Source: a virus
Lineage: Duplodnaviria; Caudoviricetes
IMG/VR virus record: IMGVR_UViG_3300009514_000027
Span: 1 to 60,761 of that record
Strand: one strand, 5' to 3'
Length of the DNA stretch: 60,761 nucleotides
A model generated the notes under the pieces. That model saw only the letters and a list, made by a program, of their open reading frames with translations. It had not been told where the DNA came from and made no database searches. The position numbers were made by a program, and so were the translations under genes. Positions 18,339-60,587 of the stretch are shown here, piece by piece (position 1 is the stretch's first letter; every line of letters starts with the position of its first letter).

Positions 18339-18351
18339 TAATCTTCTTTCC

Positions 18352-35610: not shown

Positions 35611-36866
35611 AATCATATGCAGATGTAGCTGCAGTTATACAAGGAAAGATAGCAAAGTTTAAAGATAAACTTGCTAAAACTTCTGACCCTATCTCTACCA
35701 CTTCTATAAAGAAGATGGTAGGAAAGTTAGAAGGTAAACTTGACGAACTCTTTCAAGAGCAAGAACAAGTAGCAACTGCTAAAGGTCTTAGAGGAAATCC
35801 TCAAGAACAAGGTATGCCTATGCAAGGAGGTATGGGACAAGAGATGCCTATGGGAAGATATGGCGGTAAGATACCTATGTATCAAACTGGTGGAGGAACA
35901 CCTTATGCAGAAGGTTATAATCCAAATCCTTTGTTTAATGACCAAGGACAATCGTGGGGATATATTGATACAATACCTTCTATACAGCAACCTTTAAACG
36001 AATATTCCAATCTAAATAAAATACCTGTGCAGTATGGTAAAACTCCTACATTTACTCCTTCTATGGGAACTAATACTGCACAAAGATATAATAGTGGAGA
36101 GGGTGCTTTTATGAGTAGACTTCCTAATCAAGACGTTCCTATAGACCAAAATGCTCCAGGATATCAGGAAGCTACCTTGCAAAATTCTCTTTATGGACCT
36201 CCCCATGAAACTCCCTCCAGTGGAATTCCTGATAACAACTACGCTATGGACTATCTTCCAGGAGCTATTGCAGGGGGAGTTAGTGGATTGTATGACATAG
36301 GTATGGGAATAAACTCTTTAAGAAATCCAGATAAGTTTGACTTTGGTAGAATAGATAAGGTTAACCCAAGCCTTATAAATATGGAAGGTACTAAAGCAAG
36401 AGGTACAAGAGCTATAGAAGAAGAAAGAGCTGCTGCTAATTACAATATTAGAGGCGGAGCTTCTTCTGCTGGACAATATCTATCTTCAAGAACTGCTCTT
36501 GGAGTAGGAGCAGGAAAAGCAAAAGCTGATTTTTTGAATAAGATAGGGGAATTTGAAGCTAATACCAATGCTGGAATAATTAATCAGAATAATCAGTTTA
36601 ATTCTGGAATAGATTCTCAGAATTTAGACCTTAAATATAAAGCAAAATTACTTGAGTTACAAGGTAAAGCAAGAAGTCAGGAGTCTATCTCCAGAGGGAT
36701 AGGACAACTTGGAACTGTTGCAGGACAATACGGCAGTAATGTAGCAAAATCTAAACAGCAAGATGAACTATTTAGTTCTTTAGGCACTAATGATTTTGAG
36801 TATGTTTATACCATAGACCCAAGAGACGGCAAAAAGAAAAGAATGTTAGTACCAAAAACAGCATAA
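35598..36866 (+). CDS. virion cargo (ejection) protein
   Basis: 422 aa, RYGG and YQTGG motifs, G/A/Q/N-rich helical C-half. Confidence 0.7.
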   Translation: MAKLKSYADVAAVIQGKIAKFKDKLAKTSDPISTTSIKKMVGKLEGKLDELFQEQEQVATAKGLRGNPQEQGMPMQGGMGQEMPMGRYGGKIPMYQTGGGTPYAEGYNPNPLFNDQGQSWGYIDTIPSIQQPLNEYSNLNKIPVQYGKTPTFTPSMGTNTAQRYNSGEGAFMSRLPNQDVPIDQNAPGYQEATLQNSLYGPPHETPSSGIPDNNYAMDYLPGAIAGGVSGLYDIGMGINSLRNPDKFDFGRIDKVNPSLINMEGTKARGTRAIEEERAAANYNIRGGASSAGQYLSSRTALGVGAGKAKADFLNKIGEFEANTNAGIINQNNQFNSGIDSQNLDLKYKAKLLELQGKARSQESISRGIGQLGTVAGQYGSNVAKSKQQDELFSSLGTNDFEYVYTIDPRDGKKKRMLVPKTA

Positions 36867-44150: not shown

Positions 44151-47100
44151 TGGCTGTAAGGTGTCCAAATATACAAAGTAAGGAGTGGAAAAGAATGCTA
44201 CTATCTTTAGGTAGTACTAATGCATGGAATCTATTCATTGCCAATGGTGAGAGTGTTCCTTCTATGGATACCATTGACGATGTTATAAGAAACTTCAAAA
44301 ATGAAACTAATGACATACAGAGTTCTGTAGTTAAAGGGCTATCTCCTATGGAGGAACACTATGCTATGAGGAGTATAGGCAAGATGATATTTGACAGTAT
44401 CCTTGAGAAGCCTAATATGACTATTGACCAAAGGTTTGAAAGTGTTAGAGAGACTCTTACTGCATGGGAACAGTATCATAGGGACGTAGCAGAGAAAGTG
44501 TTAGAAGGAGAAGAGCAGGATGCCTATCTTAACTTTGCAAACAGTACAGAGAAACTATTAGACCCAGAGGCGTTTGACCAGTTAAAGTCTAAGATTACTA
44601 ATGATGTCAGGAAACAACTTTCTGCACTAGATTTTGCAGACGAGTCTATAGATGAAGACCAGAAAGTAACTAAGGGAGAAAATTATGGTAAAGAAAACTT
44701 TCTTATAGACAATAAACGTAAAGTAAGTAGAAGACTAAAAGGATTTATAAGTTATATTGAAGATGTTATATTTGATGAAAACAATGAGTTACAGCCCAGG
44801 CTTAACTCTTTTAACTTACCTATGTACATTCCTTTTAGCAGTGTGTACAGTTCTTTATCTTACCACCTTGCAAATACTTCGTTTGATGGTATGGCTGCTA
44901 AACTGGAAGCTATAGGTAAGTACAATCCAGTAATTAAACAGATAGCAGATAAACTTGAGAGTCTAAAAGAAGAGACAGGATTAGACCAGGTTTCTATCTA
45001 TAAGGAGTTCATGACTAACTTCAAGAAACAACATTTGAAGTTTACCACTACTAAACTAGACCAGCAGAATTTCAAATCCCGTGTATTCTATAGTAATAGA
45101 AATAATGCTGAAAGTATTGTACTTAGTCAATGGCAAGAGAAGGTTAAGGTTTTTGCTTCTTCAAAAGACTCTGTGCTAAAGCATGATGCTAACTCTAATA
45201 TCTTTCCAAATAAAGAAAGGATTACATCTATTGTAGAGAACTTTAGAAGCGAAGAAACTAAAATAACTAATGACAATAGTTTAACTGCAAGAGAGAAAGA
45301 GAGTAAGACTGTCAGACTTACCATAGACACACTTGCTAAGTTAGGGATTACGTTTGAGAATAACATCTATGACGTTATTACTACTAACCCTAAACTTATA
45401 AACTTTGAAGAGTTTACTCCTAAAGCTTTTATTGCCTCTTCTAAATATGTATTTAAAAGATTTGATAACCTCATATCTAACAAATTATTCGTAGAACAGA
45501 ATCCTTTTATAGAGGGAGAAGAGTCTAAGAATTTTAGACTACTGGCAGCAGTAGCACTATCTACTTCTAATGCTTTCTTTTCTACAAGTTTCTTAAATGA
45601 GGAGTCAAAGAATATCTATGCTATAAGTAATAACTCCTTTATGTCCACTACTTATGATAAGCTAATGGATGGAAATGAATACATAGAGAAGTTACAAAAG
45701 CTTTCTGTATACCATGAGGATAGTTATCTTCTTGAGCAGTTAAAAAATCCCACATTCAAGAAGAACTTTGAAATAGTATTTAAGTCTGTGTTCAACACAG
45801 AGCACTCAAGTAAACAGGGTAAGCCTTTTCAGGAATTAGTAGAATCCGAGAGATGGCTAGTAAAGATAATAGACTTTCATAATTCAGGAAAGGAAAAAGG
45901 ATACTTTCAAACTCCTACCTATGGGGATAGGAAAGTAGTTACATTTGTAGGAATGCCTAAACTTGAAGGAAGGATTCATAATGGAGAGGTACAGGGAAAG
46001 GTGTTAGATGTCATGTATAGGATATTCTTATCTGAGAAGAAAAGTATAGACCAGGCAACAAAGCATTTAGAGGAGTTTAAGAATGACCCTAAGAAGTTAC
46101 TTCTTAACTACCATACTGGAGAAAAGACGGGACTAAAGTTCCATCTTCTTCCTTTCATGAACGACTTCAAGATTAATGGTATTCCTATTGCAGAGATAGA
46201 GAATTATGAAGGATATAAAACAGAGATTAAGAAAGCTATCAGTGACTATATGATAGAAAGAGTAAGGGATGATATTAAAACTCTTGAACGTCTTGGACTG
46301 TATGAAAAAAGAAACACCTTTAAGGAAAAGGTTTCAAAAGAAGTATTCTTTGAGAACTTCTTACTTAACTATCAGGCTGCATATGCAGGAATGTACCAGA
46401 TATTTTCTAATAATATAGCGCAGTCAGAAGGATTTACGAAAGGTTCTAAACGGAATGCTCTTATTCTTTCTTCAGGGACAAACATATTTCATACTAAAGA
46501 AGACTTAGGAATTAAGAGTCTTACTGTAGGAGATGTAAAGTTTCTATTAAGAAGGAGAGAGGCTATAAAGAAAGCTCTTACAAAGGAATTTGAGGAAAGA
46601 GGTAAGAATGTAGGTATAACTATTCCAGAGTCAAGAGTAGATGAAATACTCTCAAACTTTGATGATACTAATATCACAGACTCTCAAGCTTATATGTCTA
46701 TAAAGTTCTACAGAGAGTTTATGGATAGGTTTGGTAAACTTACTCCTGAACTTGCAGATATTCTTGATAAGGCAGAAAGTGGAAAAAAGATTTCTATAGC
46801 AAAATTCATAGAGGCAAACTCTCTTAATCCTGTAAAACCTGTATATGTAGCAGATGTCTATGATGAGGACTTAAAGATGATGGTAAGAAGAGTATATAAA
46901 TTCTCTGCTTTTCCTCTGTTTAAGCAACTTACTGAGACTATTGAGGAATACAACGACCTTGACCAGTTTCGTCAGGAAGTAGAGAATAGTGAAGTAGATA
47001 TGGTATTTTATGAATCTGCAAGTAAGGTAGGGACTAACAATATTCACCAGTTCTATGACGAGGAGTATCTTGTTAATCCTATAAAGAAAGAAGATGTACA

Positions 47101-50100
47101 GACTATACCTTGGGAAGGAATGTTCCTACAACAGGAAAATCCTTATGATGAGGATAAAGACTCTATTACAGGAGGTTCACAGATATGGAAACTTATTACA
47201 GGAGACCTTCTTGACCCTCAAGTAGGAGATATAAAGTTTGATGTTGGGGATAAGAAAATAGGAGCAAGAGAAATACACCAATTCCTTAATGACCTTTATT
47301 CTACTAACATACAAGAAGATTATAAAGCTCTTTTAGAGGAGTTTGGTATTAAGGAGTATGAAGGTACTGAGAATAAGAGATATGAGATAGTAAGTCTTAA
47401 AGCATTAAAGGATGTCCTTCTTAAAGAGGCAGTAGAGAGAGGATACTCCCTTACGTCATTAGTAGCATTAGAGATAGAAGTGAATAATGTTACGAAGGAA
47501 GAAAACTTTATAATCCCTCTATCCTTTACTCCTAATAGTATACAGTTTGAGAGTATGTTAAACTCTCTTATTTCTAACAGGATGAAGCAGCATCTTAGAG
47601 GAAGGTCTTATGTACAAGGTTCCCCTAATGGATTCTCTACTACCTTAGACCAACTTTCTGAAGGTGTAAGAAGTAAGATTGAATGGGCAGAAGGAAAGAG
47701 TGGTATAGAATATTACCGTATAGGAAGAGATGGTAAGACATTACCTATGCAGATACTTATTCCAAATGCTTATAAGAAGTATGTAAAGGGCGGAAGATTG
47801 TCTCCAGAGTTTGCAAGAATTATAGGATTCAGGATTCCAACACAAGCATTTAACTCTATGATGTTTGCAGAGGTAGTTGGTTACTTACCTGATGAGGCTG
47901 GTAATCTTATGATAGTACCTCACGAATTTCTTAAACAGACTGGTGGGGACATGGACTTTGATAAAGTCTATACTTACAATAGACATGGATATAACAACAC
48001 TGTTCCAAAACAACCGCAGGAAGAACTTGAGAGAGAGTATCAGAATTTCATATCTACGGAAAACTGGTCTTCGAAAGCAAAGAAAGAGATTATAAGAAAA
48101 AATATAGAGAATTTTGATGATGTTCGTGGAAGACAAGAATGGGCGAATATCCATGAAATGTATTATTCTAAAGAGGAAGGTAAATTCTTTATGCAAAAAG
48201 GAGCAGGAGATTACGTACCTGTAAAATATAATTACGAGCAAGCTCCACAAGAGAACACAAGAGAGCAAAGAGAGAATGCCTTATTAGACCTTCATATGTC
48301 TATTATGGAGCACCCTATGATGCTTTCAAGACTTATAGATGTAGATACACAAAAACCTATTACTGATGAGAATGACGCTATAGATAAGACTCTATCTGCA
48401 ACTAAGAAAGATAAACATCCTCTTTCTATTACAGAACAGGACAAGCTCTATGATAGTAACAATGCTGGTAAAAGCGGTAGAGCTACAGCAACATTGCATA
48501 GTAGTTATCATGCTATTAGCCAGTATATCCCACTTCAGGTAAGAATCTATATAAAGACAAAGGCAGGACTTATGCCTAATGTAGCAGGTGTAAAGTTCTT
48601 AAACGAGAAAGGAAATATTATACAAGCAAAAAAAGAACAAGGAAATTCATGGGCAGGCTCTTATATGCTTAATAAGGTAAGAGGACATGGAGGACATCTT
48701 ATATCTGATGTTATCAGATGGATACAATCTGCTACTCTTGATAATGCTACAAAAGGAGAACTAGGTAGGACTAAACTTGACGACAATACTCTAAATACTG
48801 CTATGTATATAGCAAGAACAGGGTTTGGAATAGACTATATTGCAAGATTCTTCAGACAACCTGCTATACAGGCTTATTCCAGAAATCTTAATAATAAAAA
48901 AGCTTTCTTTGCAAGGTATAATGATAAGATGGAAGATGAGGTTACTACTGAACTTCTTTTAGATAACGTAAATAAACTCAGGGATACCAGAGTTATTAAG
49001 GACGAGAGTGTTTTTGAAAAAATGTCACAGATAGACTTTACAGACTTTGATGGTGTATCTCTTGAAGAGATGAATAAATTTCTTATCTTAAAAGAGAAGA
49101 TAGCAGACAATACTGCAACAGAAGAAGAGAAAGCAATTTACTATCAAGGACAGATAAAGATTGTAAAAGCTTTCTATGTGTATAAACAAACTGCTGACAA
49201 TCTAATGGCTTCTATGACTCCTACAAACACTGATGTAAAAGGTGTAGGAAAGAACTATCACGCAGTTCTTGAAAGAGTAAGAGGTCTTGATAGTCTTAAA
49301 GATTTACCTCTTATAGAGAATGCAGAGTTATTGCTTGAAAATACCTTTCTTGGTAAAGTAGCAGAACTTGGTGTTAGAACAGCAAAGGATATTTTTACAG
49401 ATACTAATATTCTGTATTATAACACAGACTTGTTTAAGACTGTATATGACCTTGCTAAAGATGCAGAAATATTTTCTAAAACAGGAAGGATTAGTGAAAG
49501 TAGGTTTAATGACTTACGAAGGGATTTTACAACCTTTCTCTCTACTCATAATGAGAATGGGATATTCAATGACCTGTTTGACGATTATGCAACTGACAAT
49601 CTAAGACATCTGAGACAGTCTTTGTTATTTGGAAAGAACTCTTTAGCTGCCAGACTTTCTAAGTATAGAAAGAAGATAAAAGACGGAGAGACAATAGAGG
49701 GAGAATGGCTTATAAATAATCTTCTTTTAGATATTACGGGATGGGAGAATACTCCTGACTCTATACAGTATAATAGTTCTAATATAGAACAGGAAGAAGC
49801 TCCATTAGCAGAGAACTCTCTTATAGAGATGAATAACTCTGAGAATCCAGAGACAAGACAACTTGCAAGAGACCTGATTGCTTATATCTATATGACAGGA
49901 GGTACAGTTGCTTCTGTAAGAGGACTATCTTCTATTATCCCATCTTCTTACCTTAGAAGAAAAGGTTTTGGAACTTTTTATAACGAAAATTTGGTAATCT
50001 TGTCAAAAGTTAGTATCTTTGCAGATAGATTCTTTGACCAGTTTATGAGAAATAACCCTAAATATATTAAGACTATAGATATCAATGACATAACTATAGC

Positions 50101-51079
50101 AAAGGGTTCAAGATATTATGCAAACATATCCACTCCTACAGACAAGGTAGCATCTTTATATATAAAGGTATATACACAACCTATGCCTAACTCTAATGAA
50201 AAGAGTATAGAGATGTTGTTTAAGAGAGATTACAGCAAAGATGGTACTACACACTACTTCAGAATAGACTCATTAGGTTATGGCTATCAATCAGAGTATG
50301 ACATCAATGATGATACTGTGAGGTCAGCATATCCCATAAACAATATTCCTAACTATAGTGCAGTTGCTAATCTTGATAATATTACAGAAAAGGATGACTA
50401 CGAAGATAGATTACAAATGGAAGCTGGAAGTGTAAATGAATTTATGGGAGAAGAAAAACCCATTACTACAAATAGAGAGTTTGAAATTGCGGATAACCTT
50501 ACTCCAATAGAACAGAATTTTACTGATGGGCAAGGAGGAAGGAAAATGCAGCCACAGTTTAAAGGAAAATCCACTATGGATTTAATTATTAGTGGGGATA
50601 GAACAAGAACTACAAGAGCTAATACTGATATTCAAAGAATGGCAAAAGATTACGGTCTTTCTAAAATATCAGATTTGGAAGGAAAAGTTATAAGAATGAC
50701 TGACAAGAAAGGAAGACAGGTGTATACAAGAATAACAAAGGTAGTTCCTTTTACTCAGGAATATCAAAATAGGACATGGCAGAAAGAAGGTTGGAACAAA
50801 GAAGTTACTGATAAACTTATAGGTAAATATCCTTATGCTATAGAATTTGAAGTAGTAAATAAAACTACTGAAAAAGGTATAGAGGTAAAACCTGGAGAAC
50901 AATTAGATTTGTTTTCTCCAGAGAGTAAAGTAGAGGTTAAAGAAGATGAATCTGCAGCAGGTCAATGGAAGACACATGGTGAGAAACTAACTGCAAAATA
51001 TGGAGTGGGGATTAAAGATGCATGGAGCAGATTTACTCCTGAAGAAAGGAAGTTTAAAATTAAGTGTTTAATAGGTTAA
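44150..51079 (+). CDS. virion-packaged DNA-dependent RNA polymerase (single polypeptide, two-barrel family)
   Basis: GFRIPTQ (from 47831) and GGDMDFDK catalytic DxDxD (47948-47962), plus TDSQAY and ESASKVG motifs. 2309 aa. Confidence 0.9.
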   Translation: MAVRCPNIQSKEWKRMLLSLGSTNAWNLFIANGESVPSMDTIDDVIRNFKNETNDIQSSVVKGLSPMEEHYAMRSIGKMIFDSILEKPNMTIDQRFESVRETLTAWEQYHRDVAEKVLEGEEQDAYLNFANSTEKLLDPEAFDQLKSKITNDVRKQLSALDFADESIDEDQKVTKGENYGKENFLIDNKRKVSRRLKGFISYIEDVIFDENNELQPRLNSFNLPMYIPFSSVYSSLSYHLANTSFDGMAAKLEAIGKYNPVIKQIADKLESLKEETGLDQVSIYKEFMTNFKKQHLKFTTTKLDQQNFKSRVFYSNRNNAESIVLSQWQEKVKVFASSKDSVLKHDANSNIFPNKERITSIVENFRSEETKITNDNSLTAREKESKTVRLTIDTLAKLGITFENNIYDVITTNPKLINFEEFTPKAFIASSKYVFKRFDNLISNKLFVEQNPFIEGEESKNFRLLAAVALSTSNAFFSTSFLNEESKNIYAISNNSFMSTTYDKLMDGNEYIEKLQKLSVYHEDSYLLEQLKNPTFKKNFEIVFKSVFNTEHSSKQGKPFQELVESERWLVKIIDFHNSGKEKGYFQTPTYGDRKVVTFVGMPKLEGRIHNGEVQGKVLDVMYRIFLSEKKSIDQATKHLEEFKNDPKKLLLNYHTGEKTGLKFHLLPFMNDFKINGIPIAEIENYEGYKTEIKKAISDYMIERVRDDIKTLERLGLYEKRNTFKEKVSKEVFFENFLLNYQAAYAGMYQIFSNNIAQSEGFTKGSKRNALILSSGTNIFHTKEDLGIKSLTVGDVKFLLRRREAIKKALTKEFEERGKNVGITIPESRVDEILSNFDDTNITDSQAYMSIKFYREFMDRFGKLTPELADILDKAESGKKISIAKFIEANSLNPVKPVYVADVYDEDLKMMVRRVYKFSAFPLFKQLTETIEEYNDLDQFRQEVENSEVDMVFYESASKVGTNNIHQFYDEEYLVNPIKKEDVQTIPWEGMFLQQENPYDEDKDSITGGSQIWKLITGDLLDPQVGDIKFDVGDKKIGAREIHQFLNDLYSTNIQEDYKALLEEFGIKEYEGTENKRYEIVSLKALKDVLLKEAVERGYSLTSLVALEIEVNNVTKEENFIIPLSFTPNSIQFESMLNSLISNRMKQHLRGRSYVQGSPNGFSTTLDQLSEGVRSKIEWAEGKSGIEYYRIGRDGKTLPMQILIPNAYKKYVKGGRLSPEFARIIGFRIPTQAFNSMMFAEVVGYLPDEAGNLMIVPHEFLKQTGGDMDFDKVYTYNRHGYNNTVPKQPQEELEREYQNFISTENWSSKAKKEIIRKNIENFDDVRGRQEWANIHEMYYSKEEGKFFMQKGAGDYVPVKYNYEQAPQENTREQRENALLDLHMSIMEHPMMLSRLIDVDTQKPITDENDAIDKTLSATKKDKHPLSITEQDKLYDSNNAGKSGRATATLHSSYHAISQYIPLQVRIYIKTKAGLMPNVAGVKFLNEKGNIIQAKKEQGNSWAGSYMLNKVRGHGGHLISDVIRWIQSATLDNATKGELGRTKLDDNTLNTAMYIARTGFGIDYIARFFRQPAIQAYSRNLNNKKAFFARYNDKMEDEVTTELLLDNVNKLRDTRVIKDESVFEKMSQIDFTDFDGVSLEEMNKFLILKEKIADNTATEEEKAIYYQGQIKIVKAFYVYKQTADNLMASMTPTNTDVKGVGKNYHAVLERVRGLDSLKDLPLIENAELLLENTFLGKVAELGVRTAKDIFTDTNILYYNTDLFKTVYDLAKDAEIFSKTGRISESRFNDLRRDFTTFLSTHNENGIFNDLFDDYATDNLRHLRQSLLFGKNSLAARLSKYRKKIKDGETIEGEWLINNLLLDITGWENTPDSIQYNSSNIEQEEAPLAENSLIEMNNSENPETRQLARDLIAYIYMTGGTVASVRGLSSIIPSSYLRRKGFGTFYNENLVILSKVSIFADRFFDQFMRNNPKYIKTIDINDITIAKGSRYYANISTPTDKVASLYIKVYTQPMPNSNEKSIEMLFKRDYSKDGTTHYFRIDSLGYGYQSEYDINDDTVRSAYPINNIPNYSAVANLDNITEKDDYEDRLQMEAGSVNEFMGEEKPITTNREFEIADNLTPIEQNFTDGQGGRKMQPQFKGKSTMDLIISGDRTRTTRANTDIQRMAKDYGLSKISDLEGKVIRMTDKKGRQVYTRITKVVPFTQEYQNRTWQKEGWNKEVTDKLIGKYPYAIEFEVVNKTTEKGIEVKPGEQLDLFSPESKVEVKEDESAAGQWKTHGEKLTAKYGVGIKDAWSRFTPEERKFKIKCLIG
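49990..50021 (+). promoter_or_regulatory. intragenic Bacteroidota-type promoter inside the RNAP gene
   Basis: TTTG (49990-49993) + 20 nt + TATCTTTG (50014-50021). Shares TTTGGTAAT and TAGTATCTTTGCA with the promoter at 16517. Confidence 0.65.
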
Positions 51080-51082: not shown

Positions 51083-54000
51083 ATGAAATGTCTAAATATA
51101 AGCCATCCAGAGTTAATACAGTTATCTAAAGATACTAATATTCCAATGTATGAATTGGACTATATAGTGTCTAATTGGATGGATACTACTAAAGAGGATA
51201 GATTTCCTACTAAGGAAGAAGTATTTGAGAACAAGACTAGCATTCCTCAAGTAAACTATCAATTTAAAGGCATTAGACTGGCTGTAAACAACTATAGCAA
51301 GATATTATCTTGGGAGAAGCAAATAAAGGATAAAGATATTCTATGGGACAAAGTTCAGAAACTTGGTATTCCTAAAGAACAAGTAGAGCTTATTAGAAAC
51401 TCTGAAGGAAATACGGTAGGAGAGAAGTTATTAGATTTTATTTTTAAATATAGTTATACTGTTGAGATTAATGTTTCTACCAATAAAGATGCTGCTTCAA
51501 AAGGATTATCAGAATACGATACTGAAAACTTTACAGTAGATTCATGGAATTATCAATCAAGTTTTGATGAGGGATACAATGTAAGATACCATAAACAATT
51601 TACAGATTCTGGGGAGTGGGTTAAAATTTCAGGGGATGAGTTTGACAAAAATAGAGAAATAGCAAAGGAGGAAAAAACAAGAGAAACTCCAACTCAACAT
51701 CATTCTAATCTAACAGTTCCAGGAGGTACTAATTATACAGAGAATGCTATAAGAACAGTTGGAATAGTTAATGTTATATCTGCTGAGGGAGGTTATCACG
51801 ATAATGAATTTAATCAGTCAAGAGGGGATATGGCTGGATGGTTTAGAAGTGATGATAAATATAATAAAGAACAAGGAGATTTAGTAATTTACTATAAGGA
51901 AAATACACCTAAAGATGTTAAAGAACTTTATGATGATGTAAACAACCATAAAATTACCAATAAAGAATTTGCTGATAAAAGAGAAGACTTTTATGTAAAT
52001 AAAGGTATAGATATTAATGAATATCAAACTACAGCAAAAGAAGAATTTAAAACTCGTAGAATACTAGAATTACAATCTTTCTTTCAGAAAGGTAGAGATA
52101 AAGAAAATCTTATTTCAGAATCTAATCAAAAAATTAGTTTAAAAAATATTAATGATGCTATATCAAATCCTGAAAAATATTGGACAGAAGATATGGGTGG
52201 AGGTTATTGGTTGGCAGACTATGAATCTGTTGAACAAGGTTTTGATGTTACAGGAGGTACAAAAGAACAATTTTTAGAAAGACTTAAATCTAAAAAATTA
52301 GAATTAGAACAATCATCTGTTTCAACCGAAAACCAATTCTTACAACTCCTAAATAAAAAAAATAACTGGGTAACATTCTTTGTTAAATCTATCATCCAAG
52401 ATAGTGCTAAGAAAGGGTATGAGAAAGTATTGTTTCCTACTGGTGATACTGCTAGTAAGGTAGAAGGACATGAGACTTTAGAAGAGTTTAAGAAGCAGAA
52501 AGAAGATAGGATTAAAGAACTTGAGAAGGCAAAACTACTTGAAGATAATAAGGAATATAAAATAGAAAGGGTTGAAGAAGGACTTGGAAAGGGTAAATAC
52601 GAGCTTACCATTATTGGAAAAGCAGGGTCTCTTCTTTTTAATACAAGAGAAGAGGCTTTAATAGAGGTCAAACAAAGAAAAAGAGATATTGATATTGAAA
52701 TAACTCAACTTAAACAAGAACTTGAAAGAGTAGAAACAGAAGGATTTGGTGCTTTAAAACCTATATTTAAATTTTACAATATTGATATAAGAAATATTTT
52801 TGTAAAACAATACGGAGAATGGATAAATACAGGAGTATTAAAAAATAAATACGGTAAAGAATGGAAAGAAAAAGATTTAACTTGGCAAGAATTACAAGAC
52901 CATGTAAAAAGTGATACTTTAAAATTTATTACTGATGAATATGGTAATACTTGGATTGAAGTAACTATTACTCTTGAAAAAGCTACACAACCTATTCTTT
53001 TACAACTTACTCCAGAAGAAGAAAAACCAGTAGACGAGAAGTTAGATAAAATAATTAAGAACCTTCTTGAATCTTTAGGATTCTCTGTACAAGAATTTGA
53101 CAGGATAAGAACAGAACGAGGATTAGATGCTGTTGCCTCAGTAGATATTCTAAATAAGATAGTTAAGGTTGCCAGAGGAAAGGCAAAGATAGACACTTTA
53201 GCAGAAGAGGCTTCTCACGTAGTTTTTAGAATGCTTGGTAAAGACAATCCTATGTATCAGAGAGCAATGTCTTTGATAGATAAGACTGACCTCTACAGTC
53301 GTGTAAAGCAAGAATACTGGGAAACTTACGAAGGTAATGAGGAGAAGGTAAAAGAAGAGGCAGTAGGTAAGATGATTTCCCGTTATGTAGTCAATCAACA
53401 TCTTGAGAATGAGCGTAACAAAACTATTATAGGACAGATTATCAACACTATTAAGATGATACTTAATAGGGTGATAAATATGTTTAAGTCTGTAAATGAG
53501 GTTTCTTTACAAGAAGTTATAGACAATGCTTATGGCACTCTTGCAGAAAGAATGTTATCAGGCAAACTTGATGAATTATCTTTTGAGAATCTAAAGGATG
53601 ATGTATTCTATCAATTAGGAGACTATGAGTTATGGAAAGACTTTCCTATGAGGACTTCTAATATTGAGAAGCTTGAAACAGGAGAGAAAGGAATAACTAT
53701 TCGTCCTAACCGTTTTGAAACAGGGTATTACAAGTTTGGTAAGAACTACTACCTTGTTACTAATCTATACGATAAGAAGGTAAACATAGAAGATACTACA
53801 GATAAAGCAGACCTTAGAAAGAGATTTATAAAAGACGAGGAGATAAAGAAGGAGCATATTAAGGATTTCTTTGAAGGAAAGAACCTTATGTATGTCTATC
53901 AGATTGCTAAGGTAGATGCAGGTATTCAGGCAGAATTGGAGAAGAAAGAGGTAAAGAAGAAGGCAAAGAAACAACCTCTTAGAAAGGAAACAAGAGAAGA

Positions 54001-56938
54001 TATACTTACAGGTATTCCTAACATAGACGTATTTATAATGCGTTGGGATAATGATGTTAGGAGACTTAGGAGTAAGATTGTGCCTAACGATAAAGAACAT
54101 AATGAGAAGATACGACATCAGATATTTGCTATAGAATCTCGTATAAAGAAGCTAAAAGAGGTAAGAAAGCGTAATCTAGTAAAAGAGACTGCTGAAAGGC
54201 AAGTGGCGGATATAAAGAGAAAAATGGCTACCTATGACACTCTTGACTATAAAGGAAAGGTAGATTTCTTTATTAGAGCTTCTGAATACCTTGAAGGATG
54301 GACAGATATCTCTACACTTCTTGAAGTAGAGGAAGGAGAGGATGCTCTTAGTACACAGATAAATAATATTCAGGGAGAGGTAAAATACTTACTTGGGAAG
54401 TTAAAGATTTTAAAGTTTAACTTTGTTAAGCAATATATGGGCAAGGGAGAACTTAAAGAGTCAGATGTTCTTGGACCTTTGAATAAAACTCCTTATTGGG
54501 AGTCTGTGCTACTTGACATATCTGTAAGTTCTGTTCCTGCTGTACAAAGACTATTTTCTTTCTTTGACGATGCAAGGGCAAATGCTCTTGACAAGCATAG
54601 AGTATATAATGAAGAGGTAAAGGAGATGTATAAGGCAACACAGGAGTATATAAAGTCTTCAGGAATGTCTATGAATGATATTCTTAATCTCTTTACCCAA
54701 AGAAAGGAAAATGGTGTGTATACAAAGAACCATACTGACAAGTATAAGCAAGAATATTACGATGAACTAAATAGTAAGACAGGTAAGGTAAAGAGTAAAT
54801 GGAAGACAGACAATACTACAAGAACTGTAGACTATGTAGCTTACGAAAAAGCTAGAAAAGAAGTAGAAAGAGAGTTTAAAGACGACAACGGAGAATGGTT
54901 TGAACAGACTTCTTATCTTAACTGGGTAAGCGATTATAGTCCTGATAAGTTTGGAAATCATAGAAATGAGTTTGCTGAGTTTACTCCCATAGATAAATGG
55001 ATAGACCCAAGATGGAAGGATATAAAGGAAGGAAAGTATAAGGGAACTCATGTAGAAAAGCTGTACGACTTTTATCTTCAAAAACTGAAAGAGAGGAAGG
55101 CTAAGATTCCTAAGCATCCCAATCTTCCCTCTAACTATATGCCTGAAATTACACAATCTATCTTTGAAGCTTATACTAAAGATGGTATGTCAGGAATGTT
55201 TAGATTTGGAGGAACATCTCTTGGAGAGAAACTTAAAGAGTCTTTTGGAGCAGAAATAGAGTCTGAGGTAGACTTTGCGGTAAGAGACCTTGAAACTAAT
55301 CAGGCAGAGAAGAGAGTGCCTATCTATATGATGGCAAACCTATTAAACCCAGAAGAGAAGTCAAGAGATATCTTTAAAATATTAGATATATTTGGAGCTG
55401 TTTCTTACACCTATGAGTATAAAACTGCGATAGAAGTTCCTGTAAACATAATGAGGAAACTTCTAAAAGAGGCTACAGAGAAAGAAATGATAGGAGGTGT
55501 AGCAAAAAAAGGTATTTATGGAGAGGTTCTTAAAATAATTGAGGGTAATAAGAATACCTTTGAACAGGTAGATTACTACATAGACTCTATGCTGTATGAC
55601 ATGAAGAAGGAAAAACCTAGTATTCTGTTCAAAAGTAAGACGCTGTCCTCTGAGGATAAGGAAAGAGGGCTTAGCCTAACAAGTACAGGAGATACTCTTA
55701 TAGCTCATACTCAGTTAATGGGAATGGGACTAAACGTATTTGCCTCTGCTACTAACACTTTATTCGGAACACTTAGTAACTTTGTACATGCTGCAGGAAA
55801 CGAAGACTATACAACTGCTCACGCAATGAAAGCTTTAAGTATTGCCCTTACTACTACAGCGTTTACAAGTGAAAATGCAAAGAAGGTTAGCAGGCTTATG
55901 GAGTTTTTTCAGATAGAGTATCTGAATCTGGACACTAAGTATGGAGATGCGTGGTATAAGAAGAATATGACTGACCATGCTTTTATCCTTATGAAGAAGA
56001 CCGAGAAGTTTAACCAGATGCAGATGATGATTGCCAAAATGCTGAATACAGAAGTTATAGACAAGAATGGTAAGAAAACTAGTCTTTGGGATGCTTTTGA
56101 GGTAAAAGACGACAAACTATTCTGGGACGATGCAAAATATGGGGAGAATCAGTATGGAGACGAGACAGAAGGTAAACAAACCTTTCGTAGGAGACTGAAA
56201 CAGATTATAGCTAACCAACACGGTGCTTATGATACTGCCTTTCCTATGTTGGCTAAAAAGCATCTGGCAGGGAGAATGCTGACAGTATTTAGAACATGGT
56301 TGCCAAGGGGAGCATATACCCACATTGCTGGAGAAAGGGAAGTAGAAGGAAAGATGGAAAAAGGAAGGTTTATATCCCTTAAAGACTATTATAAGGATAA
56401 AGGGGTCATTAAAGCCTCCTACGGGCTTATCTGGGGCGTGGTAAGGAAGATGATTAACTTTGGCTTTTTTAAGACTGCAGCGTTCTCTAATGAAGGATTA
56501 TCAGATATAGACGCTGCTAACATGAGAAAGTTGTCTGCAGAGATATCTTTTGACCTTGCTATACTACTAATGGGATTGATGCTAAAGGGTATAAAGGTAG
56601 GAGACGATGACGAGGAACAGAAAGCACTTATTAAATTCCTTATTAATCAGTCTGTAAGGGTAGATTCAGAACTTGCCTTTTGGTGGAGTCCTGCTGCCCA
56701 AGCTAATATAATAAGGAACATAGCTCCTCCTCAGAGGACTATTTTACAATTTAAGGAGTTGTGGGACACAGGAACAGATGCTATTATGGGAGATGTGTAC
56801 TATACAAGAGGTTCTCACAAAGGAAGGTCTAAATTCTGGAGAAAGTTTTGGAATAACATTCCTATAGTAACACAAATTCAGAAAGTTGCAGAGCTTCCAG
56901 GTTCTACAACACACTCAGGAAGGACTAGGTATTACTAA
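51083..56938 (+). CDS. large polyvalent cargo protein
   Basis: 1951 aa. GGTNYTE...RRILELQS...KGYEKVLFP domain, degenerate zincin EEASH, ASCH-like segment, helical C-terminal region. Confidence 0.75.
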   Translation: MKCLNISHPELIQLSKDTNIPMYELDYIVSNWMDTTKEDRFPTKEEVFENKTSIPQVNYQFKGIRLAVNNYSKILSWEKQIKDKDILWDKVQKLGIPKEQVELIRNSEGNTVGEKLLDFIFKYSYTVEINVSTNKDAASKGLSEYDTENFTVDSWNYQSSFDEGYNVRYHKQFTDSGEWVKISGDEFDKNREIAKEEKTRETPTQHHSNLTVPGGTNYTENAIRTVGIVNVISAEGGYHDNEFNQSRGDMAGWFRSDDKYNKEQGDLVIYYKENTPKDVKELYDDVNNHKITNKEFADKREDFYVNKGIDINEYQTTAKEEFKTRRILELQSFFQKGRDKENLISESNQKISLKNINDAISNPEKYWTEDMGGGYWLADYESVEQGFDVTGGTKEQFLERLKSKKLELEQSSVSTENQFLQLLNKKNNWVTFFVKSIIQDSAKKGYEKVLFPTGDTASKVEGHETLEEFKKQKEDRIKELEKAKLLEDNKEYKIERVEEGLGKGKYELTIIGKAGSLLFNTREEALIEVKQRKRDIDIEITQLKQELERVETEGFGALKPIFKFYNIDIRNIFVKQYGEWINTGVLKNKYGKEWKEKDLTWQELQDHVKSDTLKFITDEYGNTWIEVTITLEKATQPILLQLTPEEEKPVDEKLDKIIKNLLESLGFSVQEFDRIRTERGLDAVASVDILNKIVKVARGKAKIDTLAEEASHVVFRMLGKDNPMYQRAMSLIDKTDLYSRVKQEYWETYEGNEEKVKEEAVGKMISRYVVNQHLENERNKTIIGQIINTIKMILNRVINMFKSVNEVSLQEVIDNAYGTLAERMLSGKLDELSFENLKDDVFYQLGDYELWKDFPMRTSNIEKLETGEKGITIRPNRFETGYYKFGKNYYLVTNLYDKKVNIEDTTDKADLRKRFIKDEEIKKEHIKDFFEGKNLMYVYQIAKVDAGIQAELEKKEVKKKAKKQPLRKETREDILTGIPNIDVFIMRWDNDVRRLRSKIVPNDKEHNEKIRHQIFAIESRIKKLKEVRKRNLVKETAERQVADIKRKMATYDTLDYKGKVDFFIRASEYLEGWTDISTLLEVEEGEDALSTQINNIQGEVKYLLGKLKILKFNFVKQYMGKGELKESDVLGPLNKTPYWESVLLDISVSSVPAVQRLFSFFDDARANALDKHRVYNEEVKEMYKATQEYIKSSGMSMNDILNLFTQRKENGVYTKNHTDKYKQEYYDELNSKTGKVKSKWKTDNTTRTVDYVAYEKARKEVEREFKDDNGEWFEQTSYLNWVSDYSPDKFGNHRNEFAEFTPIDKWIDPRWKDIKEGKYKGTHVEKLYDFYLQKLKERKAKIPKHPNLPSNYMPEITQSIFEAYTKDGMSGMFRFGGTSLGEKLKESFGAEIESEVDFAVRDLETNQAEKRVPIYMMANLLNPEEKSRDIFKILDIFGAVSYTYEYKTAIEVPVNIMRKLLKEATEKEMIGGVAKKGIYGEVLKIIEGNKNTFEQVDYYIDSMLYDMKKEKPSILFKSKTLSSEDKERGLSLTSTGDTLIAHTQLMGMGLNVFASATNTLFGTLSNFVHAAGNEDYTTAHAMKALSIALTTTAFTSENAKKVSRLMEFFQIEYLNLDTKYGDAWYKKNMTDHAFILMKKTEKFNQMQMMIAKMLNTEVIDKNGKKTSLWDAFEVKDDKLFWDDAKYGENQYGDETEGKQTFRRRLKQIIANQHGAYDTAFPMLAKKHLAGRMLTVFRTWLPRGAYTHIAGEREVEGKMEKGRFISLKDYYKDKGVIKASYGLIWGVVRKMINFGFFKTAAFSNEGLSDIDAANMRKLSAEISFDLAILLMGLMLKGIKVGDDDEEQKALIKFLINQSVRVDSELAFWWSPAAQANIIRNIAPPQRTILQFKELWDTGTDAIMGDVYYTRGSHKGRSKFWRKFWNNIPIVTQIQKVAELPGSTTHSGRTRYY

Positions 56939-56960
56939 CTTGTAAGATTATAAGAAATAA

Positions 56961-56992
56961 TTAGGTAAACATTGTAATTATACCTATCTTTG
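56961..56992 (+). promoter_or_regulatory. Bacteroidota-type promoter with no protein gene downstream
   Basis: TTAG (56961-56964) + 20 nt + TATCTTTG (56985-56992). Confidence 0.7.
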
Positions 56993-56999
56993 CACTTTA

Positions 57000-57103
57000 A
57001 ATTTAATAGACTGGCTATCTACCAGCTTATATAATATTTACGAAGCCTATTGTAAGTAGTTATTTGAGGGGTAGATACTCAAATAATGAACACAATGGGT
57101 TTC
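57000..57103 (+). ncRNA. candidate structured non-coding RNA (core; may extend to about 57390)
   Basis: Hairpin 57011-57025. Long hairpin 57042-57103 with 12-bp and 9-bp stems, two G-U pairs and an AGUA/GAA internal loop. The two loops are complementary. Promoter immediately upstream. Confidence 0.6.
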
Positions 57104-57349
57104 TGATTTTATACACTACTCTTTTTCCCACAGAAAGATGCAAACGGAGAACTTTAGCAACTACGGCTATTGGAACAGGTACTTTTTTAGTGAGTTTATT
57201 TTTCCAGGGGGGACTTTTTCTTTCTTTACTTATGCTTCTTCTATAGAACTTGTTGCTTTCGTTTCTTTCTTTTAATCTACTAATTTCCTTTCAAACTTCT
57301 AAAAATATACAGACTTTTAGAATCTAAAAACCCTTGGCTACTATTCGTT

Positions 57350-57390
57350 AGAAGGGAAAGGTAGACCGAAGCCTACCAACCCTTTTCTTT
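57350..57390. terminator. hairpin at convergence of + and - transcription units, probable terminator
   Basis: GGTAG (57360-57364)/CTACC (57373-57377) inner stem, AAGGG/CCCTT outer stem, T-rich tail, abuts the stop at 57391. Confidence 0.55.
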
Positions 57391-57702
57391 CTATGTATCT
57401 TCATCACTGACTTCTCCCCATGTATCTACATATGCATTCTGAGAAGTTTCAGATAATTCTTGTAATTGTTGTTCTAAAGTAGAGATTGTTATACAAGCGT
57501 CTTCAAATTCTCTTTGTAAGGCTTTATATTCTTTTGTAGCCCTCTGTCCTTTTATTAAGCCATTCTTATAACCGTAATTATATCCTTTGGTTAAAGAATC
57601 AAAGATAGTATCTTGTGTAAGAGGTTCTCCCTCAAAGTGGTCTTTATATATTTTTTTAAACCCATCTTGACGAAGGGTTGGATTGAACTTATTCTTATTC
57701 AT
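57391..57702 (-). CDS. hypothetical protein
   Basis: 103 aa, overlaps the upstream minus-strand ORF. Confidence 0.65.
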   Translation of the reverse strand: MNKNKFNPTLRQDGFKKIYKDHFEGEPLTQDTIFDSLTKGYNYGYKNGLIKGQRATKEYKALQREFEDACITISTLEQQLQELSETSQNAYVDTWGEVSDEDT

Positions 57703-59774: not shown

Positions 59775-60587
59775 TTAGCGTATTTGTTGTCCTAAAATAT
59801 TATAAATTTCTATATATTGAAAATTATCTGCTTTCTTACATTTACAATAAGTAATCTTTGAATATGCAAAAGCTCCATCATAATCCACTTGTTTAAGCCT
59901 AAAATAGGCTGAAATACAGTCTACGGAGTAGTCATACCACCTTTGGGTAGAACTCGTGCCAGAACCGCTTATTTTAACTAAATTTGCCCATTCTTCTATA
60001 TTTACGCTTTTTTGGACTATAAAATAGTCGTTATTGACTTCTGATGCTGTACTCCATTGTAGTACTTGTCTTGCACAATTAAAAAATAACAGTTCTATTG
60101 GTAAAGGAGTAGTATTTATGAAATAGGGGCAAAAAGTTACAAATCCATTACATCCTCCTCCTCCCCAAGCCCTCATTCTATAACAAAGAGTATAGTTTGC
60201 CCCTGTTGTTAGTCCTGAATATGATAATCCTGTACTGATAAAAGTACAGGAGTTGTCATAAAGATTATAAGGTCCAAAGGATTTATTATTACAGTTAGTA
60301 GAATTTCCTGCGTCTGCAAGTATATCTGTTCCTGCCGCAGCCAGTGATAGAAGTCCTGTTGAAGCTAATCTTAGACCTGTGTCCGCATCTGATTCGAATG
60401 CATAAGATGGAACTGCAACTGAACCTGTGCCTGCTTGAACTGTATCACCGGCGTTGGTAGGTGATAGTATTGTACCTGTTCTTACCCACTCAACGTTATA
60501 GGTAGAACCACTTCCGGCTTCTGTCAGGTCATCCCAGCTAGAACCATTGTAGAAGTATATATTAGTTCCATCGCTGAATATGTCCAA
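59775..60587 (-). CDS. chimeric ORF: fibre-like N-part plus Bacteroidota LPIEL domain with truncated T9SS-like tail
   Basis: PSYAFESDADTGL (fibre-type), then PLPIELL.F...WSTASEVNNDYF...YFRLKQVDYDG...IEIYNILGQ. The stop coincides with the GTTA box. Confidence 0.5.
   Translation of the reverse strand: MDIFSDGTNIYFYNGSSWDDLTEAGSGSTYNVEWVRTGTILSPTNAGDTVQAGTGSVAVPSYAFESDADTGLRLASTGLLSLAAAGTDILADAGNSTNCNNKSFGPYNLYDNSCTFISTGLSYSGLTTGANYTLCYRMRAWGGGGCNGFVTFCPYFINTTPLPIELLFFNCARQVLQWSTASEVNNDYFIVQKSVNIEEWANLVKISGSGTSSTQRWYDYSVDCISAYFRLKQVDYDGAFAYSKITYCKCKKADNFQYIEIYNILGQQIR

What the first reader, a model, noticed from the sequence alone, without database searches (positions are those of the whole stretch)
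56961..57103. Promoter-driven structured RNA with loop E motif and kissing-loop potential
Seen: a consensus promoter (-7 box 56985-56992) is followed by no credible protein gene. Hairpin A is CTGG-CTATCTA-CCAG (57011-57025). Hairpin B has GAAGCCTATTGT (57042-57053) pairing with ACAATGGGTTTC (57092-57103), including two G-U pairs that work only on the + strand RNA. Its internal loop is AAGUAG/UGAAC, its inner stem TTATTTGAG/CTCAAATAA (9/9), and its loop GGGTAGATA. Loop A TATCTA(CC) is complementary to loop B (GG)TAGATA (6-8 bp). Established: AGUA/GAA is the sarcin-ricin/bulged-G motif, found with loop-loop contacts in tertiary-folded RNAs. Inference: an unannotated phage ncRNA (decoy, antitoxin mimic, regulatory or packaging RNA). 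I cannot match it to a known family.
Basis: partly seen in the sequence, partly recalled or inferred. Interest (0 to 1): 0.78.

Follow-up and report, generated by a model that had tools for sequence, protein, structure and literature searches.

The report
Orphan promoter-driven hairpin RNA, crAss-like phage
Behind the last big virion gene of an uncultured crAss-like phage sits a good phage promoter followed by about 105 bases that fold into the most stable RNA hairpin of the whole stretch and by no gene, so it is probably a small non-coding RNA, but nothing like it was found in any relative and its job is unknown.

Summary
Hairpin B (57042-57103) is the most stable of 17,342 GC-corrected 70-nt windows in the window (z -7.29). 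The promoter ranks 8th of about 121,500 positions, directly behind the 7 structural-gene promoters used to build the matrix. Loop-loop matches of 6 nt or more are rare (9 of 12,132 windows). No downstream frame has coding support.

New: the 8-nt loop match is also the base of an alternative 25-bp hairpin, which is the best fold of the growing transcript until about 57098. "Kissing loops" and "structural switch" therefore both remain open.

The element lies in a 452-nt convergent junction that measures 59-74 nt in 5 of 5 inspected relatives. No homologue was found in Rfam, with a covariance model on 55 related records, or by pattern scans. Covariation could not be tested, and no RNA data were listed.

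Best reading (0.4): a lineage-specific small RNA unit of about 105-112 nt, running from promoter to hairpin. Rivals: a relic leader of a lost mobile gene, a plain operon terminator, an attenuator. Interest is moderate.

The parts
51083..56938 (+). Upstream gene. A 1951-aa virion protein, homologue of phi14:2 g065 (annotated 'RNA polymerase associated protein'). It is the last gene of the + strand structural/virion block.
   Evidence: ORF. tblastn to phi14:2 g065: 97% of the 552-aa C-terminal query covered, 19.6% identity, E 5e-13.
56961..56992 (+). Bacteroidota-type promoter. The -33 element is TTAG (consensus TTTG) at 56961-56964, followed by a 20-nt spacer and the -7 box TATCTTTG at 56985-56992. 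The start is expected near 56998-57001; this is inferred, not mapped.
   Evidence: Matrix built from the 7 promoters at 1029, 7946, 10556, 16541, 26405, 33836 and 50014. This site scores 17.3 bits, rank 8; the next-best site scores 6.8.
57011..57025 (+). Hairpin A: a 4-bp stem CUGG/CCAG with the 7-nt loop CUAUCUA. In the minimum-energy fold it is extended by AU pairs on both sides.
57042..57103 (+). Hairpin B, 62 nt. It has a 12-bp lower stem with two G-U pairs. The internal loop is AAGUA / GAAC, an AGUA/GAA bulged-G-like sequence at 57054-57058 / 57088-57091. The upper stem is 10 bp including G57059-U57087. The 9-nt loop is GGGUAGAUA (57069-57077).
   Evidence: -24.9 kcal/mol, z -7.29. Rank 1 of 17,342 windows.
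57016..57077 (+). Alternative hairpin, mutually exclusive with A and B. 57016-57043 pairs with 57050-57077 (25 bp). The 8-nt TATCTACC/GGTAGATA match forms its base.
   Evidence: -21.6 kcal/mol, z -3.32, with 1 of 200 shuffles as good. It is the minimum-energy fold for transcript 3' ends 57078-57098. The upper part alone is weak: z -1.74, 13 of 200.
57104..57112 (+). U-rich tail UGAUUUUAU directly after hairpin B. It is a possible but weak intrinsic-terminator tail.
   Evidence: Sequence. The consensus terminator scan did not call it.
57086..57106 (+). Six-codon mini-frame ATG AAC ACA ATG GGT TTC TGA inside the 3' arm of hairpin B. Both ATGs are buried in the stem.
   Evidence: Read. No test of translation was made.
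57138..57275 (+). 45-aa open frame in the T-rich spacer, judged not coding.
   Evidence: No homologue. Codon score 0.048 against 0.444 +/- 0.172 for real windows. No Pfam hit.
57113..57359 (.). The rest of the spacer.
   Evidence: z -0.35, -1.46 and -1.25. AT skew about -0.4. Local blastn found nothing with E below 0.1.
57360..57377 (-). GC-rich terminator hairpin GGTAGGCTTCGGTCTACC followed by a T-rich run. It closes the converging - strand operon. On the + strand it carries an A-C mismatch.
57391..57702 (-). First converging - strand gene (103 aa, no family match).

Best explanation
This is a lineage-specific, independently transcribed small non-coding RNA unit.

How it most likely works:
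- A promoter of the same class as the phage's structural-gene promoters is read by the host RNA polymerase in the middle or late phase. This timing is inferred by analogy with phi14:2.
- It fires just behind the stop of the last virion-block gene and makes an RNA that starts near 57000.
- The RNA folds into a short hairpin A and a long two-storey hairpin B.
- B followed by UGAUUUUAU gives a 3' end near 57104-57112, so the RNA would be about 105-112 nt. B would also stop read-through from the upstream operon.
- B carries an AGUA/GAA internal loop, which in known RNAs is a protein- or RNA-docking surface.
- The loops of A and B can pair over 6-8 bp.

Proposed action: the folded RNA acts late in infection as a regulatory or docking RNA. 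The A/B loop contact, or the competing long hairpin, sets which fold is adopted. That in turn sets how much transcription runs on against the converging operon.

Shown: the promoter quality, the fold and its rarity, the absence of a gene, and the absence of the element from relatives. Inferred: transcription itself, the 3' end, any partner, any function.
For: - Promoter: rank 8 of about 121,500 positions, directly behind the 7 training promoters. It scores 17.3 bits; the next-best site scores 6.8.
- Fold: z -4.57 for the 113 nt and z -7.29 for hairpin B. B is the most stable of 17,342 windows.
- Strand: three G-U pairs make the + strand fold 7.8 kcal/mol better than the - strand fold.
- The structure is confined to the first ~110 nt after the promoter. 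The remaining 280 nt do not differ from shuffles.
- No coding signal in any frame, no tRNA, no Rfam family.
- Loop-loop complementarity is rare in this sequence: 9 of 12,132 windows. Among 696 TANNTTTG boxes in the window plus four near-complete or complete relatives, this is the only one followed by a stable fold (-31.5 kcal/mol) with a loop match of 6 nt or more. The one other box with a 6-nt match (7946, -21.7) lies in a stretch that does not differ from shuffles.
- The phage packs its genes tightly. Most other + strand gaps are 43-272 nt and hold promoters or plain terminators; the largest gap by my >=90-aa ORF list, 862-1432 (571 nt), appears by my own reading of its sequence to hold a short unlisted frame. 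The helices here are perfect (9/9 and 12/12) next to a spacer with no signal, which argues for selection on the fold.
- Precedent: phi14:2, a cultured crAss-like phage, makes abundant non-coding RNAs of unknown function from intergenic regions (passages of bioRxiv 10.1101/2020.03.07.982082 read).
Against: - No transcript evidence of any kind is available.
- No homologue exists, so there is not a single compensatory change to support any helix or the loop contact.
- The promoter is the weakest of its class (TTAG instead of TTTG at -33; 17.3 bits against 20.0-36.4).
- The U tail is poor for an intrinsic terminator, with G and A at tail positions 2 and 3, and the consensus scan did not call it.
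- The growing transcript prefers the alternative hairpin until about 57098. This would work against termination at B.
- The element is absent from 5 of 5 inspected junctions of relatives, so it is not a conserved part of crassvirus biology.
- All statistics come from one sequence and were computed after the feature had been picked out.
Confidence: 0.4

Rival explanations
1. Relic leader of a lost mobile gene cassette. A free-standing selfish gene (for example a homing endonuclease) with its own promoter and a folded leader inserted into the short convergent junction. The gene was later deleted, leaving the promoter, the leader and the buried start codons.
For: - The 452-nt junction is an insertion relative to 5 of 5 inspected relatives, whose junctions are 59-74 nt with one bidirectional terminator.
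- Two ATGs lie buried in the 3' arm of hairpin B and open only a 6-codon frame.
- Lead only, unchecked AI notes: earlier notes of this scan describe a leader of ~105-115 nt made of a promoter box plus two hairpins with pairing loops, placed in front of homing-endonuclease genes of crAss-like and Flavobacterium-type phages.
Against: - No endonuclease or any other domain remnant lies downstream: Pfam at E up to 10 gives nothing better than E 0.1, and there are no homologues.
- There is no free-standing endonuclease gene elsewhere in the window.
- No such promoter-plus-hairpins unit occurs in four near-complete or complete relatives.
- The two HNH genes found in relatives have no such leader.
- No member sequence of the noted family was within reach, so similarity was never tested.
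- A relic old enough to have lost every coding trace should also have lost perfect helices.
Confidence: 0.2
2. Plain transcription terminator of the virion-gene operon. Hairpin B plus the U tail simply ends transcripts of the 1951-aa gene. The promoter match is a weak or idle site, and the loop match is chance.
For: - B is the first strong hairpin after the stop codon at 56938 and is followed by UGAUUUUAU.
- G-U pairs give it + strand polarity.
- Relatives carry a terminator at this junction.
- Other very stable windows of this phage are terminators (918-987 and 18278-18347).
Against: - The terminators of this phage and its relatives are short G+C-rich stems with long T runs. B is 62 nt, AU-rich, two-storeyed and has a poor tail, and the scan did not call it.
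- A terminator of the usual kind already stands at 57360-57377.
- This reading does not explain a promoter scoring 10 bits above every other non-training site.
- It does not explain the 8-nt loop match either.
Confidence: 0.15
3. Terminator/antiterminator switch (attenuator). The alternative hairpin 57016-57077 forms first and blocks hairpin B, so polymerase reads on into the spacer and against the converging genes. A factor that holds hairpin A, or binds 57016-57043, frees B and stops transcription.
For: - Three consecutive complementary segments share 57042-57077.
- The alternative fold is -21.6 kcal/mol, z -3.32. It is the best fold for 3' ends 57078-57098, and B wins only from 57102.
- The estimated direct refolding barrier is about 21.5 kcal/mol.
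- The alternative fold appears among the 25 most stable of 17,342 windows listed (window 57016-57085).
Against: - Without the 8-nt base, the alternative helix is not significant (z -1.74, 13 of 200 shuffles).
- There is no gene downstream to regulate.
- No known riboswitch or leader family matches.
- At equilibrium B has probability about 1.0.
- The terminator tail is weak.
- The barrier figure comes from a heuristic that forbids pseudoknotted intermediates.
Confidence: 0.15
4. Structured 5' leader of a small hydrophobic protein (45 aa, 57138-57275), possibly a type I toxin-like or membrane peptide.
For: - The layout reads promoter, 138-nt folded leader, open frame, hairpins and terminator.
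- The C-terminal 30 residues are hydrophobic and aromatic.
Against: - The codon score of 0.048 lies below the 5th percentile of real windows and inside the range of spurious frames.
- The only hit among 1.84 billion representatives is a repeat match to 12 residues, and there is no Pfam family.
- The T-rich composition is opposite to that of the + strand genes.
- The other 7 promoters stand within a few tens of nt of their genes.
Confidence: 0.06

Closest known systems
Small RNAs with their own promoter at the 3' end of an operon that share its terminator (enterobacterial DapZ/MicL type; phage lambda OOP RNA at a convergent junction). Named from my own knowledge, not from a call.
   Same: A promoter stands at or just past the end of the upstream gene. 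The product is a short structured RNA that would end at the hairpin which also ends the operon. As with OOP, it points against a converging gene.
   Different: No overlap with the converging gene is shown. No seed region or target is known and there is no chaperone context. The promoter is of the Bacteroidota type, the 3' hairpin is unusually long, and expression is unproven.
Abundant intergenic non-coding RNAs of the crAss-like phage phi14:2 (g004-g006 region; bioRxiv 10.1101/2020.03.07.982082, passages read).
   Same: Non-coding transcription units of unknown function in a crassvirus.
   Different: They lie in a different genome region (the early left end) and are longer. In phi14:2 they are present from the earliest time point. 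The covariance model of the present element finds nothing in the whole phi14:2 genome.
Sarcin-ricin / bulged-G (loop E) internal-loop motif.
   Same: 5'-AGUA-3' faces 5'-GAA-3' in an internal loop between two helices. The polarity is that of the ribosomal sarcin-ricin loop, and a G-U pair closes it on the apical side (read; consensus recalled).
   Different: Only the letters match. There is no 3D evidence and no conservation. An extra A-C opposition sits on the basal side.
Kissing-hairpin leaders before phage homing-endonuclease genes (known to me only from unchecked earlier notes of this scan), and the published RBS-hiding hairpins of T-even endonuclease genes (recalled).
   Same: A promoter box is followed by two hairpins whose loops pair, about 105 nt in all, in a crAss-like or Bacteroidota phage. 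The start codons are buried in the second hairpin.
   Different: No endonuclease gene or remnant lies behind it. Similarity to family members was not testable.
phi29 packaging RNA (pRNA).
   Same: A phage RNA of about 120 nt, driven by its own promoter, with complementary loops that could link molecules.
   Different: No match to any Rfam family, which includes the pRNA family if my memory of Rfam's content is right. This phage has a classical large terminase and portal. There is no three-way junction.

Membership tests
Any Rfam 15 family | Score at or above the family's gathering threshold | tested here: not met
   0 matches in the whole window at the gathering threshold. At E up to 10 on 56800-57500 there are 3 matches, all on the - strand at 57276-57460, E 2.8-4.2, far below threshold and none in the element.
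Intrinsic (factor-independent) terminator | Stable hairpin directly followed by a U tract | tested here: inconclusive
   The hairpin is very stable. The tail UGAUUUUAU has 6 U in 9 but G and A at positions 2-3. The consensus scan did not call it. The alternative fold competes until about 57098.
Sarcin-ricin / bulged-G motif | AGUA opposite GAA in an internal loop with the right polarity | tested here: met
   57055-57058 AGUA faces 57088-57090 GAA, flanked by G57059-U57087 and U57053-A57092. Sequence level only.
Sarcin-ricin / bulged-G motif | S-turn geometry, with isosteric substitutions kept among homologues | not testable with these tools
   No 3D or motif-scoring tool was available and no homologues exist.
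Kissing-loop (loop-loop) complex | Watson-Crick complement of about 6 nt or more between two hairpin loops | tested here: met
   6 nt lie strictly within the loops, 8 nt if two stem pairs of A open. This is rare: 9 of 12,132 windows.
Kissing-loop (loop-loop) complex | Co-variation of the two loops among homologues | not testable with these tools
   No homologue was found.
Terminator/antiterminator attenuator | Two mutually exclusive helices sharing one segment, one of them the terminator | tested here: met
   However, the upper part of the alternative helix alone is not significant.
Terminator/antiterminator attenuator | A regulated gene downstream | tested here: not met
   No frame has coding support.
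Kissing-hairpin leader of phage homing-endonuclease genes (earlier notes of this scan) | Promoter box followed by two hairpins with pairing loops within about 105-115 nt | tested here: met
Kissing-hairpin leader of phage homing-endonuclease genes (earlier notes of this scan) | Homing-endonuclease gene directly behind the leader | tested here: not met
   The only endonuclease domains in the window are inside the terminase intein.
Kissing-hairpin leader of phage homing-endonuclease genes (earlier notes of this scan) | Sequence/structure similarity to family members | not testable with these tools
   The notes give no sequences. I found no member in 4 near-complete or complete relatives or next to the 2 HNH genes of relatives.
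phi29-type pRNA | Match to the described family, in a phage of the phi29 packaging type | tested here: not met
   No Rfam match. The phage has a crassvirus large terminase and portal.
Type I toxin-antitoxin locus | A translated small hydrophobic protein plus an antisense RNA promoter | tested here: not met
   The frame has no coding support. No promoter of the phage's class lies on the - strand in the junction. Other promoter types were not tested.

The most novel reading that the evidence does not exclude
The element is a working structured RNA of a kind not yet described in Crassvirales. It would be a late, host-polymerase-made RNA of about 105 nt. Its S-turn-bearing long hairpin docks a protein. 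Its two complementary loops either lock the RNA into a compact tertiary fold, link copies into multimers, or flip it between two folds that decide whether late transcription runs into the converging gene block. It may belong to a wider, uncatalogued class of kissing-hairpin RNAs of Bacteroidota phages, here freed from any gene.
Probability: 0.12. Interest if true: 0.7.

Novelty: new member of a known kind. Interest (0 to 1): 0.38.

Why it matters
CrAss-like phages are among the most abundant viruses of gut and aquatic Bacteroidota, yet almost nothing is known about their RNA-level regulation. The only non-coding transcripts I found in print are the uncharacterised phi14:2 RNAs (searches; passages read).

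This is a self-contained, promoter-driven RNA with a recognisable docking motif and a built-in loop-loop or switch design. It would make a compact handle for studying late-phase control at the junction where the two gene blocks of these phages collide. As it stands it is a single-genome candidate without expression or comparative support, so its value is as a well-specified target for RNA mapping, not as a discovery.

Tried and rejected
**Searches for relatives of the region**
- INPHARED blastn with 1 kb around the element: no match.
- IMG/VR, exact 27-mer of the upper hairpin: none.
- C-terminal part of the upstream protein:
  - alone in IMG/VR: none;
  - as alignment A1 in IMG/VR: 7 loci at 21-38% identity;
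  - as alignment A3 in JGI metagenomes: 590 pattern matches, none a relative;
  - as alignment A3 in GTDB genomes: 600 pattern matches, none a relative.
- The 103-aa neighbour in IMG/VR: none.

**Searches with the RNA itself**
- Covariance model R1 (single sequence, weak by nature): only the element itself and its reverse strand in 10 sources, 155,578 bases; next best E 1.1. 0 of 5 and 0 of 50 related records at E <= 1. The other 30 of the 80 capsid-related loci were not searched.
- Pattern keeping both internal-loop strands and loop B but freeing the stems: 4 IMG/VR and 37 metagenome stretches, 41 matches. None has complementary stems (at most 7 pairs by a lenient count that allows G-U and shifted registers; 9 in the window). 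If loops vary between family members, this pattern would miss them.

**Coding and similarity**
- Alternative genetic codes (TAG=Q, table 4) open no convincing frame.
- The - strand 76-codon frame has no homologue. Its Pfam best is E 0.1.
- The GGTAGATA motif is not a repeated site in the genome: 68 matches with up to 1 mismatch against 64.9 expected.
- The spacer has no similarity to the rest of the window or to any held locus.

**Expression and earlier notes**
- Sequencing runs: none was listed and no RNA holder was listed, so no reads could be laid.
- Earlier-notes look-ups by place and by sequence returned nothing.

**Ideas dropped**
- CRISPR-repeat mimic. The resemblance to Cas13b repeats was recalled from memory only and the layout differs. 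Rfam's repeat families gave nothing. Not pursued further.
- Replication origin or packaging site. No evidence either way. The cumulative GC-skew peak here follows from the switch of gene orientation.
- Homing-endonuclease searches in relatives: HNH_3 1 hit, GIY-YIG 0, HNH 1, LAGLIDADG_3 0. Neither hit has a promoter-plus-hairpins leader.
- tblastn with the G001 HNH protein found only enterobacterial and Pseudomonas phages.

Full report
**Context**

The window is one IMG/VR virus record of 60,761 nt, estimated 62% complete. It is a crAss-like phage.
- The portal is about 40% identical to those of PhiCrAssBcn phages and Cellulophaga phage phi14:2.
- Pfam finds the crassvirus capsid, auxiliary capsid, ring and muzzle proteins.
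- PHROGs finds the large terminase and the portal.
- All genes from 171 to 56938 lie on the + strand; from 57391 onward they lie on the - strand.
- The last + gene (1951 aa) is a distant homologue of phi14:2 g065, a virion protein annotated as RNA-polymerase associated.

The finding therefore sits in the convergent junction between the virion block and a block of small unknown genes.

- The 113 nt from 56998 fold to -31.3 kcal/mol on the + strand: z -4.57, with 0 of 200 dinucleotide shuffles as good. On the - strand the value is -23.5, z -3.51.
- The difference comes from three G-U pairs, so the + strand polarity is real.
- Hairpin B alone gives z -7.29.
- In a scan of 17,342 overlapping 70-nt windows on both strands, with energy regressed on G+C, the window holding hairpin B is rank 1. 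It lies ahead of the phage's evident terminators.
- I folded 12,132 windows of 110 nt. 4,016 had at least two hairpins, and only 9 (5 loci) had a Watson-Crick match of 6 nt or more lying strictly inside two hairpin loops. This element is one of the 5.
- Two of the other four loci were folded and look like shuffled sequence. The other two were not examined.

**The promoter**

The bare box TANNTTTG is not informative: 88 matches against 73.8 expected. However, seven sites in front of + strand genes share a long consensus, TTTG, 20 nt, TATCTTTG.
- A matrix from those seven scores the site at 56961-56992 at 17.3 bits, rank 8 of about 121,500 positions on both strands. The next-best site scores 6.8.
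- Leave-one-out scores of the seven are 20.0-36.4, so this is the weakest member of the class. It has TTAG for TTTG at -33.
[quoted passage not shown] By analogy this promoter would be a middle or late one. That is inference.

**No gene behind it**

- The 45-aa frame 57138-57275 has one hit among 1.84 billion representative proteins: a 602-aa protein matched nine times by the same 12 residues, which is a repeat artefact.
- Its codon log-odds is 0.048 per codon. Real 45-codon windows of this phage give 0.444 +/- 0.172 (5th percentile 0.147). 367 spurious open frames give -0.258 +/- 0.308.
- The other frames do no better.
- Stop-codon reassignment does not open a convincing frame.
- There is no tRNA and no Rfam family.
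- The 280 nt behind the structured part do not fold better than shuffles (z -0.35, -1.46, -1.25).
- Their T-rich + strand composition resembles that of the - strand genes, but no frame supports a decayed gene.

**A second fold**

The 8-nt match TATCTACC/GGTAGATA is not only a loop-loop match. The segment 57016-57043 can pair with 57050-57077 in a 25-bp hairpin of -21.6 kcal/mol, z -3.32, with 1 of 200 shuffles as good. This fold excludes both A and B.
- Folding transcripts of growing length shows hairpin A first. The upper part of the alternative hairpin appears from about 57058, and the full alternative hairpin for 3' ends 57078-57098. A plus B appear only from 57102.
- At equilibrium the full RNA is in the A plus B fold with probability about 1.0. 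A direct-path heuristic puts the refolding barrier near 21.5 kcal/mol.
- Caveats: without its 8-nt base, the alternative helix is not significant (z -1.74, 13 of 200). The barrier estimate also ignores pseudoknotted routes.
- The complementarity therefore supports either a kissing contact in the A plus B fold or a structural switch. I cannot tell which.

**The internal loop**

AGUA (57055-57058) faces GAA (57088-57090). A G-U pair lies on the apical side and an A-C opposition on the basal side. The polarity is that of the sarcin-ricin loop (consensus recalled from my own knowledge). For a fixed register and this base composition I estimate a chance of about 1 in 10,000. That estimate is mine, made after the fact, and several other named motifs could equally have been noticed. 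No tool here scores 3D motifs.

**Comparative evidence: none to be had**

In 5 of 5 inspected relatives the same junction measures 59-74 nt and holds one G+C-rich hairpin between an A run and a T run:
- phi14:2;
- two IMG/VR phages found through the upstream protein;
- two found through the capsid. In one of these an extra + gene precedes the junction.

In the window a hairpin of that kind stands at 57360-57377, next to the - strand stop. The promoter, the hairpins and the spacer are thus about 400 nt of lineage-specific extra sequence.

Searches for a homologue of the RNA all came back empty:
- the single-sequence covariance model on 10 sources, 5 records and 50 records;
- 41 pattern matches in IMG/VR and metagenomes, all without a stem;
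- 696 promoter boxes in the window and four near-complete or complete relatives. Only two boxes, both in the window, have a 6-nt loop match, and only this one is followed by a stable fold.

The upstream protein evolves fast. A relative with a 73% identical capsid has a g065 tail only 25% identical. The two closest relatives seen at protein level, P0002 and P0017, come from sources whose contigs were out of reach. No helix, and not the loop contact, could therefore be tested by covariation.

**A lead from earlier notes**

Earlier notes of this scan are unchecked AI notes, used only as a lead. They describe, in at least 33 genomes, a leader of ~105-115 nt in front of homing-endonuclease genes of crAss-like and Flavobacterium-type phages. 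It consists of a promoter box and two hairpins whose loops pair. The notes also describe a few self-contained promoter-to-terminator RNAs with complementary loops in crAss-like phages.
- The layout and size fit the present element. An inserted mobile cassette would also explain the expanded junction.
- Against membership: nothing behind hairpin B resembles an endonuclease or any gene. The window has no free-standing endonuclease; its only such domains sit in an intein of the terminase.
- I could reach no member sequence to compare.
- Perfect helices beside a spacer without any coding trace argue that the fold is kept for its own sake.

**Verdict**

The feature is real and statistically outstanding within its genome. 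The promoter is credible and no gene follows.
- Best-supported reading (0.4): a small, independently transcribed non-coding RNA whose long hairpin also serves as its 3' end.
- Rivals: a relic leader (0.2), a plain terminator (0.15), an attenuator-type switch (0.15) and a leader of a tiny protein (0.06).
- It matches no catalogued family, but it is a new example of a known kind of thing, a phage small RNA or leader. With one sequence and no transcript data, its interest is moderate.

Noticed in passing
window 3548-7867 (+): The large terminase gene encodes 1439 aa. It carries an intein with a LAGLIDADG endonuclease (Intein_splicing at residues 297-641, LAGLIDADG_3 at 487-574). A second homing-endonuclease-like stretch lies at residues 1066-1153, so there may be two inteins.
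   Followed up: partly
window 1029, 7946, 10556, 16541, 26405, 33836, 50014 (+): Seven near-identical promoters (TTTG, 20 nt, TATCTTTG). Six stand in front of + strand genes. The one at 50014 lies inside the 2309-aa ORF, about 1 kb before the 1951-aa gene, so that gene may have its own internal promoter. No site of this class scores well on the - strand.
   Followed up: partly
window 7868-7971 and 10480-10592: The gaps before the portal gene and the next gene share a block (TTAGTTATTAGAAAACCTAT...) upstream of their promoters. It could be an upstream promoter element or a protein site.
   Followed up: no
window 51115-51191, 60201-60291, 13364-13440, 35666-35742 (+): Very stable hairpins inside coding regions, among the top 25 of 17,342 windows. 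The first sits right at the start of the 1951-aa gene.
   Followed up: no
window 57016-57023, 57070-57077, 57360-57365; 57041-57049 and 57367-57375: The hexamer GGTAGA or its complement occurs three times in the 452-nt junction, the third time in the 5' arm of the - strand terminator. A 9-nt direct repeat CGAAGCCTA links the base of hairpin B with that terminator. This hints at a duplication history or a long-range pairing, but it may be chance.
   Followed up: no
L134 (G006) against window 51083-56938: A relative with a 73% identical capsid has a g065-like tail only 25% identical. This virion protein therefore diverges far faster than the capsid. In the same relative a further + gene of 456 aa follows it.
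   Followed up: partly
L052 1179-1380 and 1381-1938 (G001): An HNH_3 endonuclease gene lies in a tRNA region (tRNA-Lys at 2833-2905). Directly upstream is a stretch that by eye looks like the 5' half of a tRNA, plus a long-range inverted repeat. This may be a tRNA gene interrupted by the endonuclease.
   Followed up: no
window 44150-51079 (+): The 2309-aa protein matches a PHROG of huge virion proteins. A simple search found no DFDxD motif, the catalytic motif of the crassvirus virion RNA polymerase, in it or in four other large proteins checked. The 1951-aa protein and the smaller ORFs were not checked. The catalytic subunit may carry a variant motif or lie elsewhere.
   Followed up: partly
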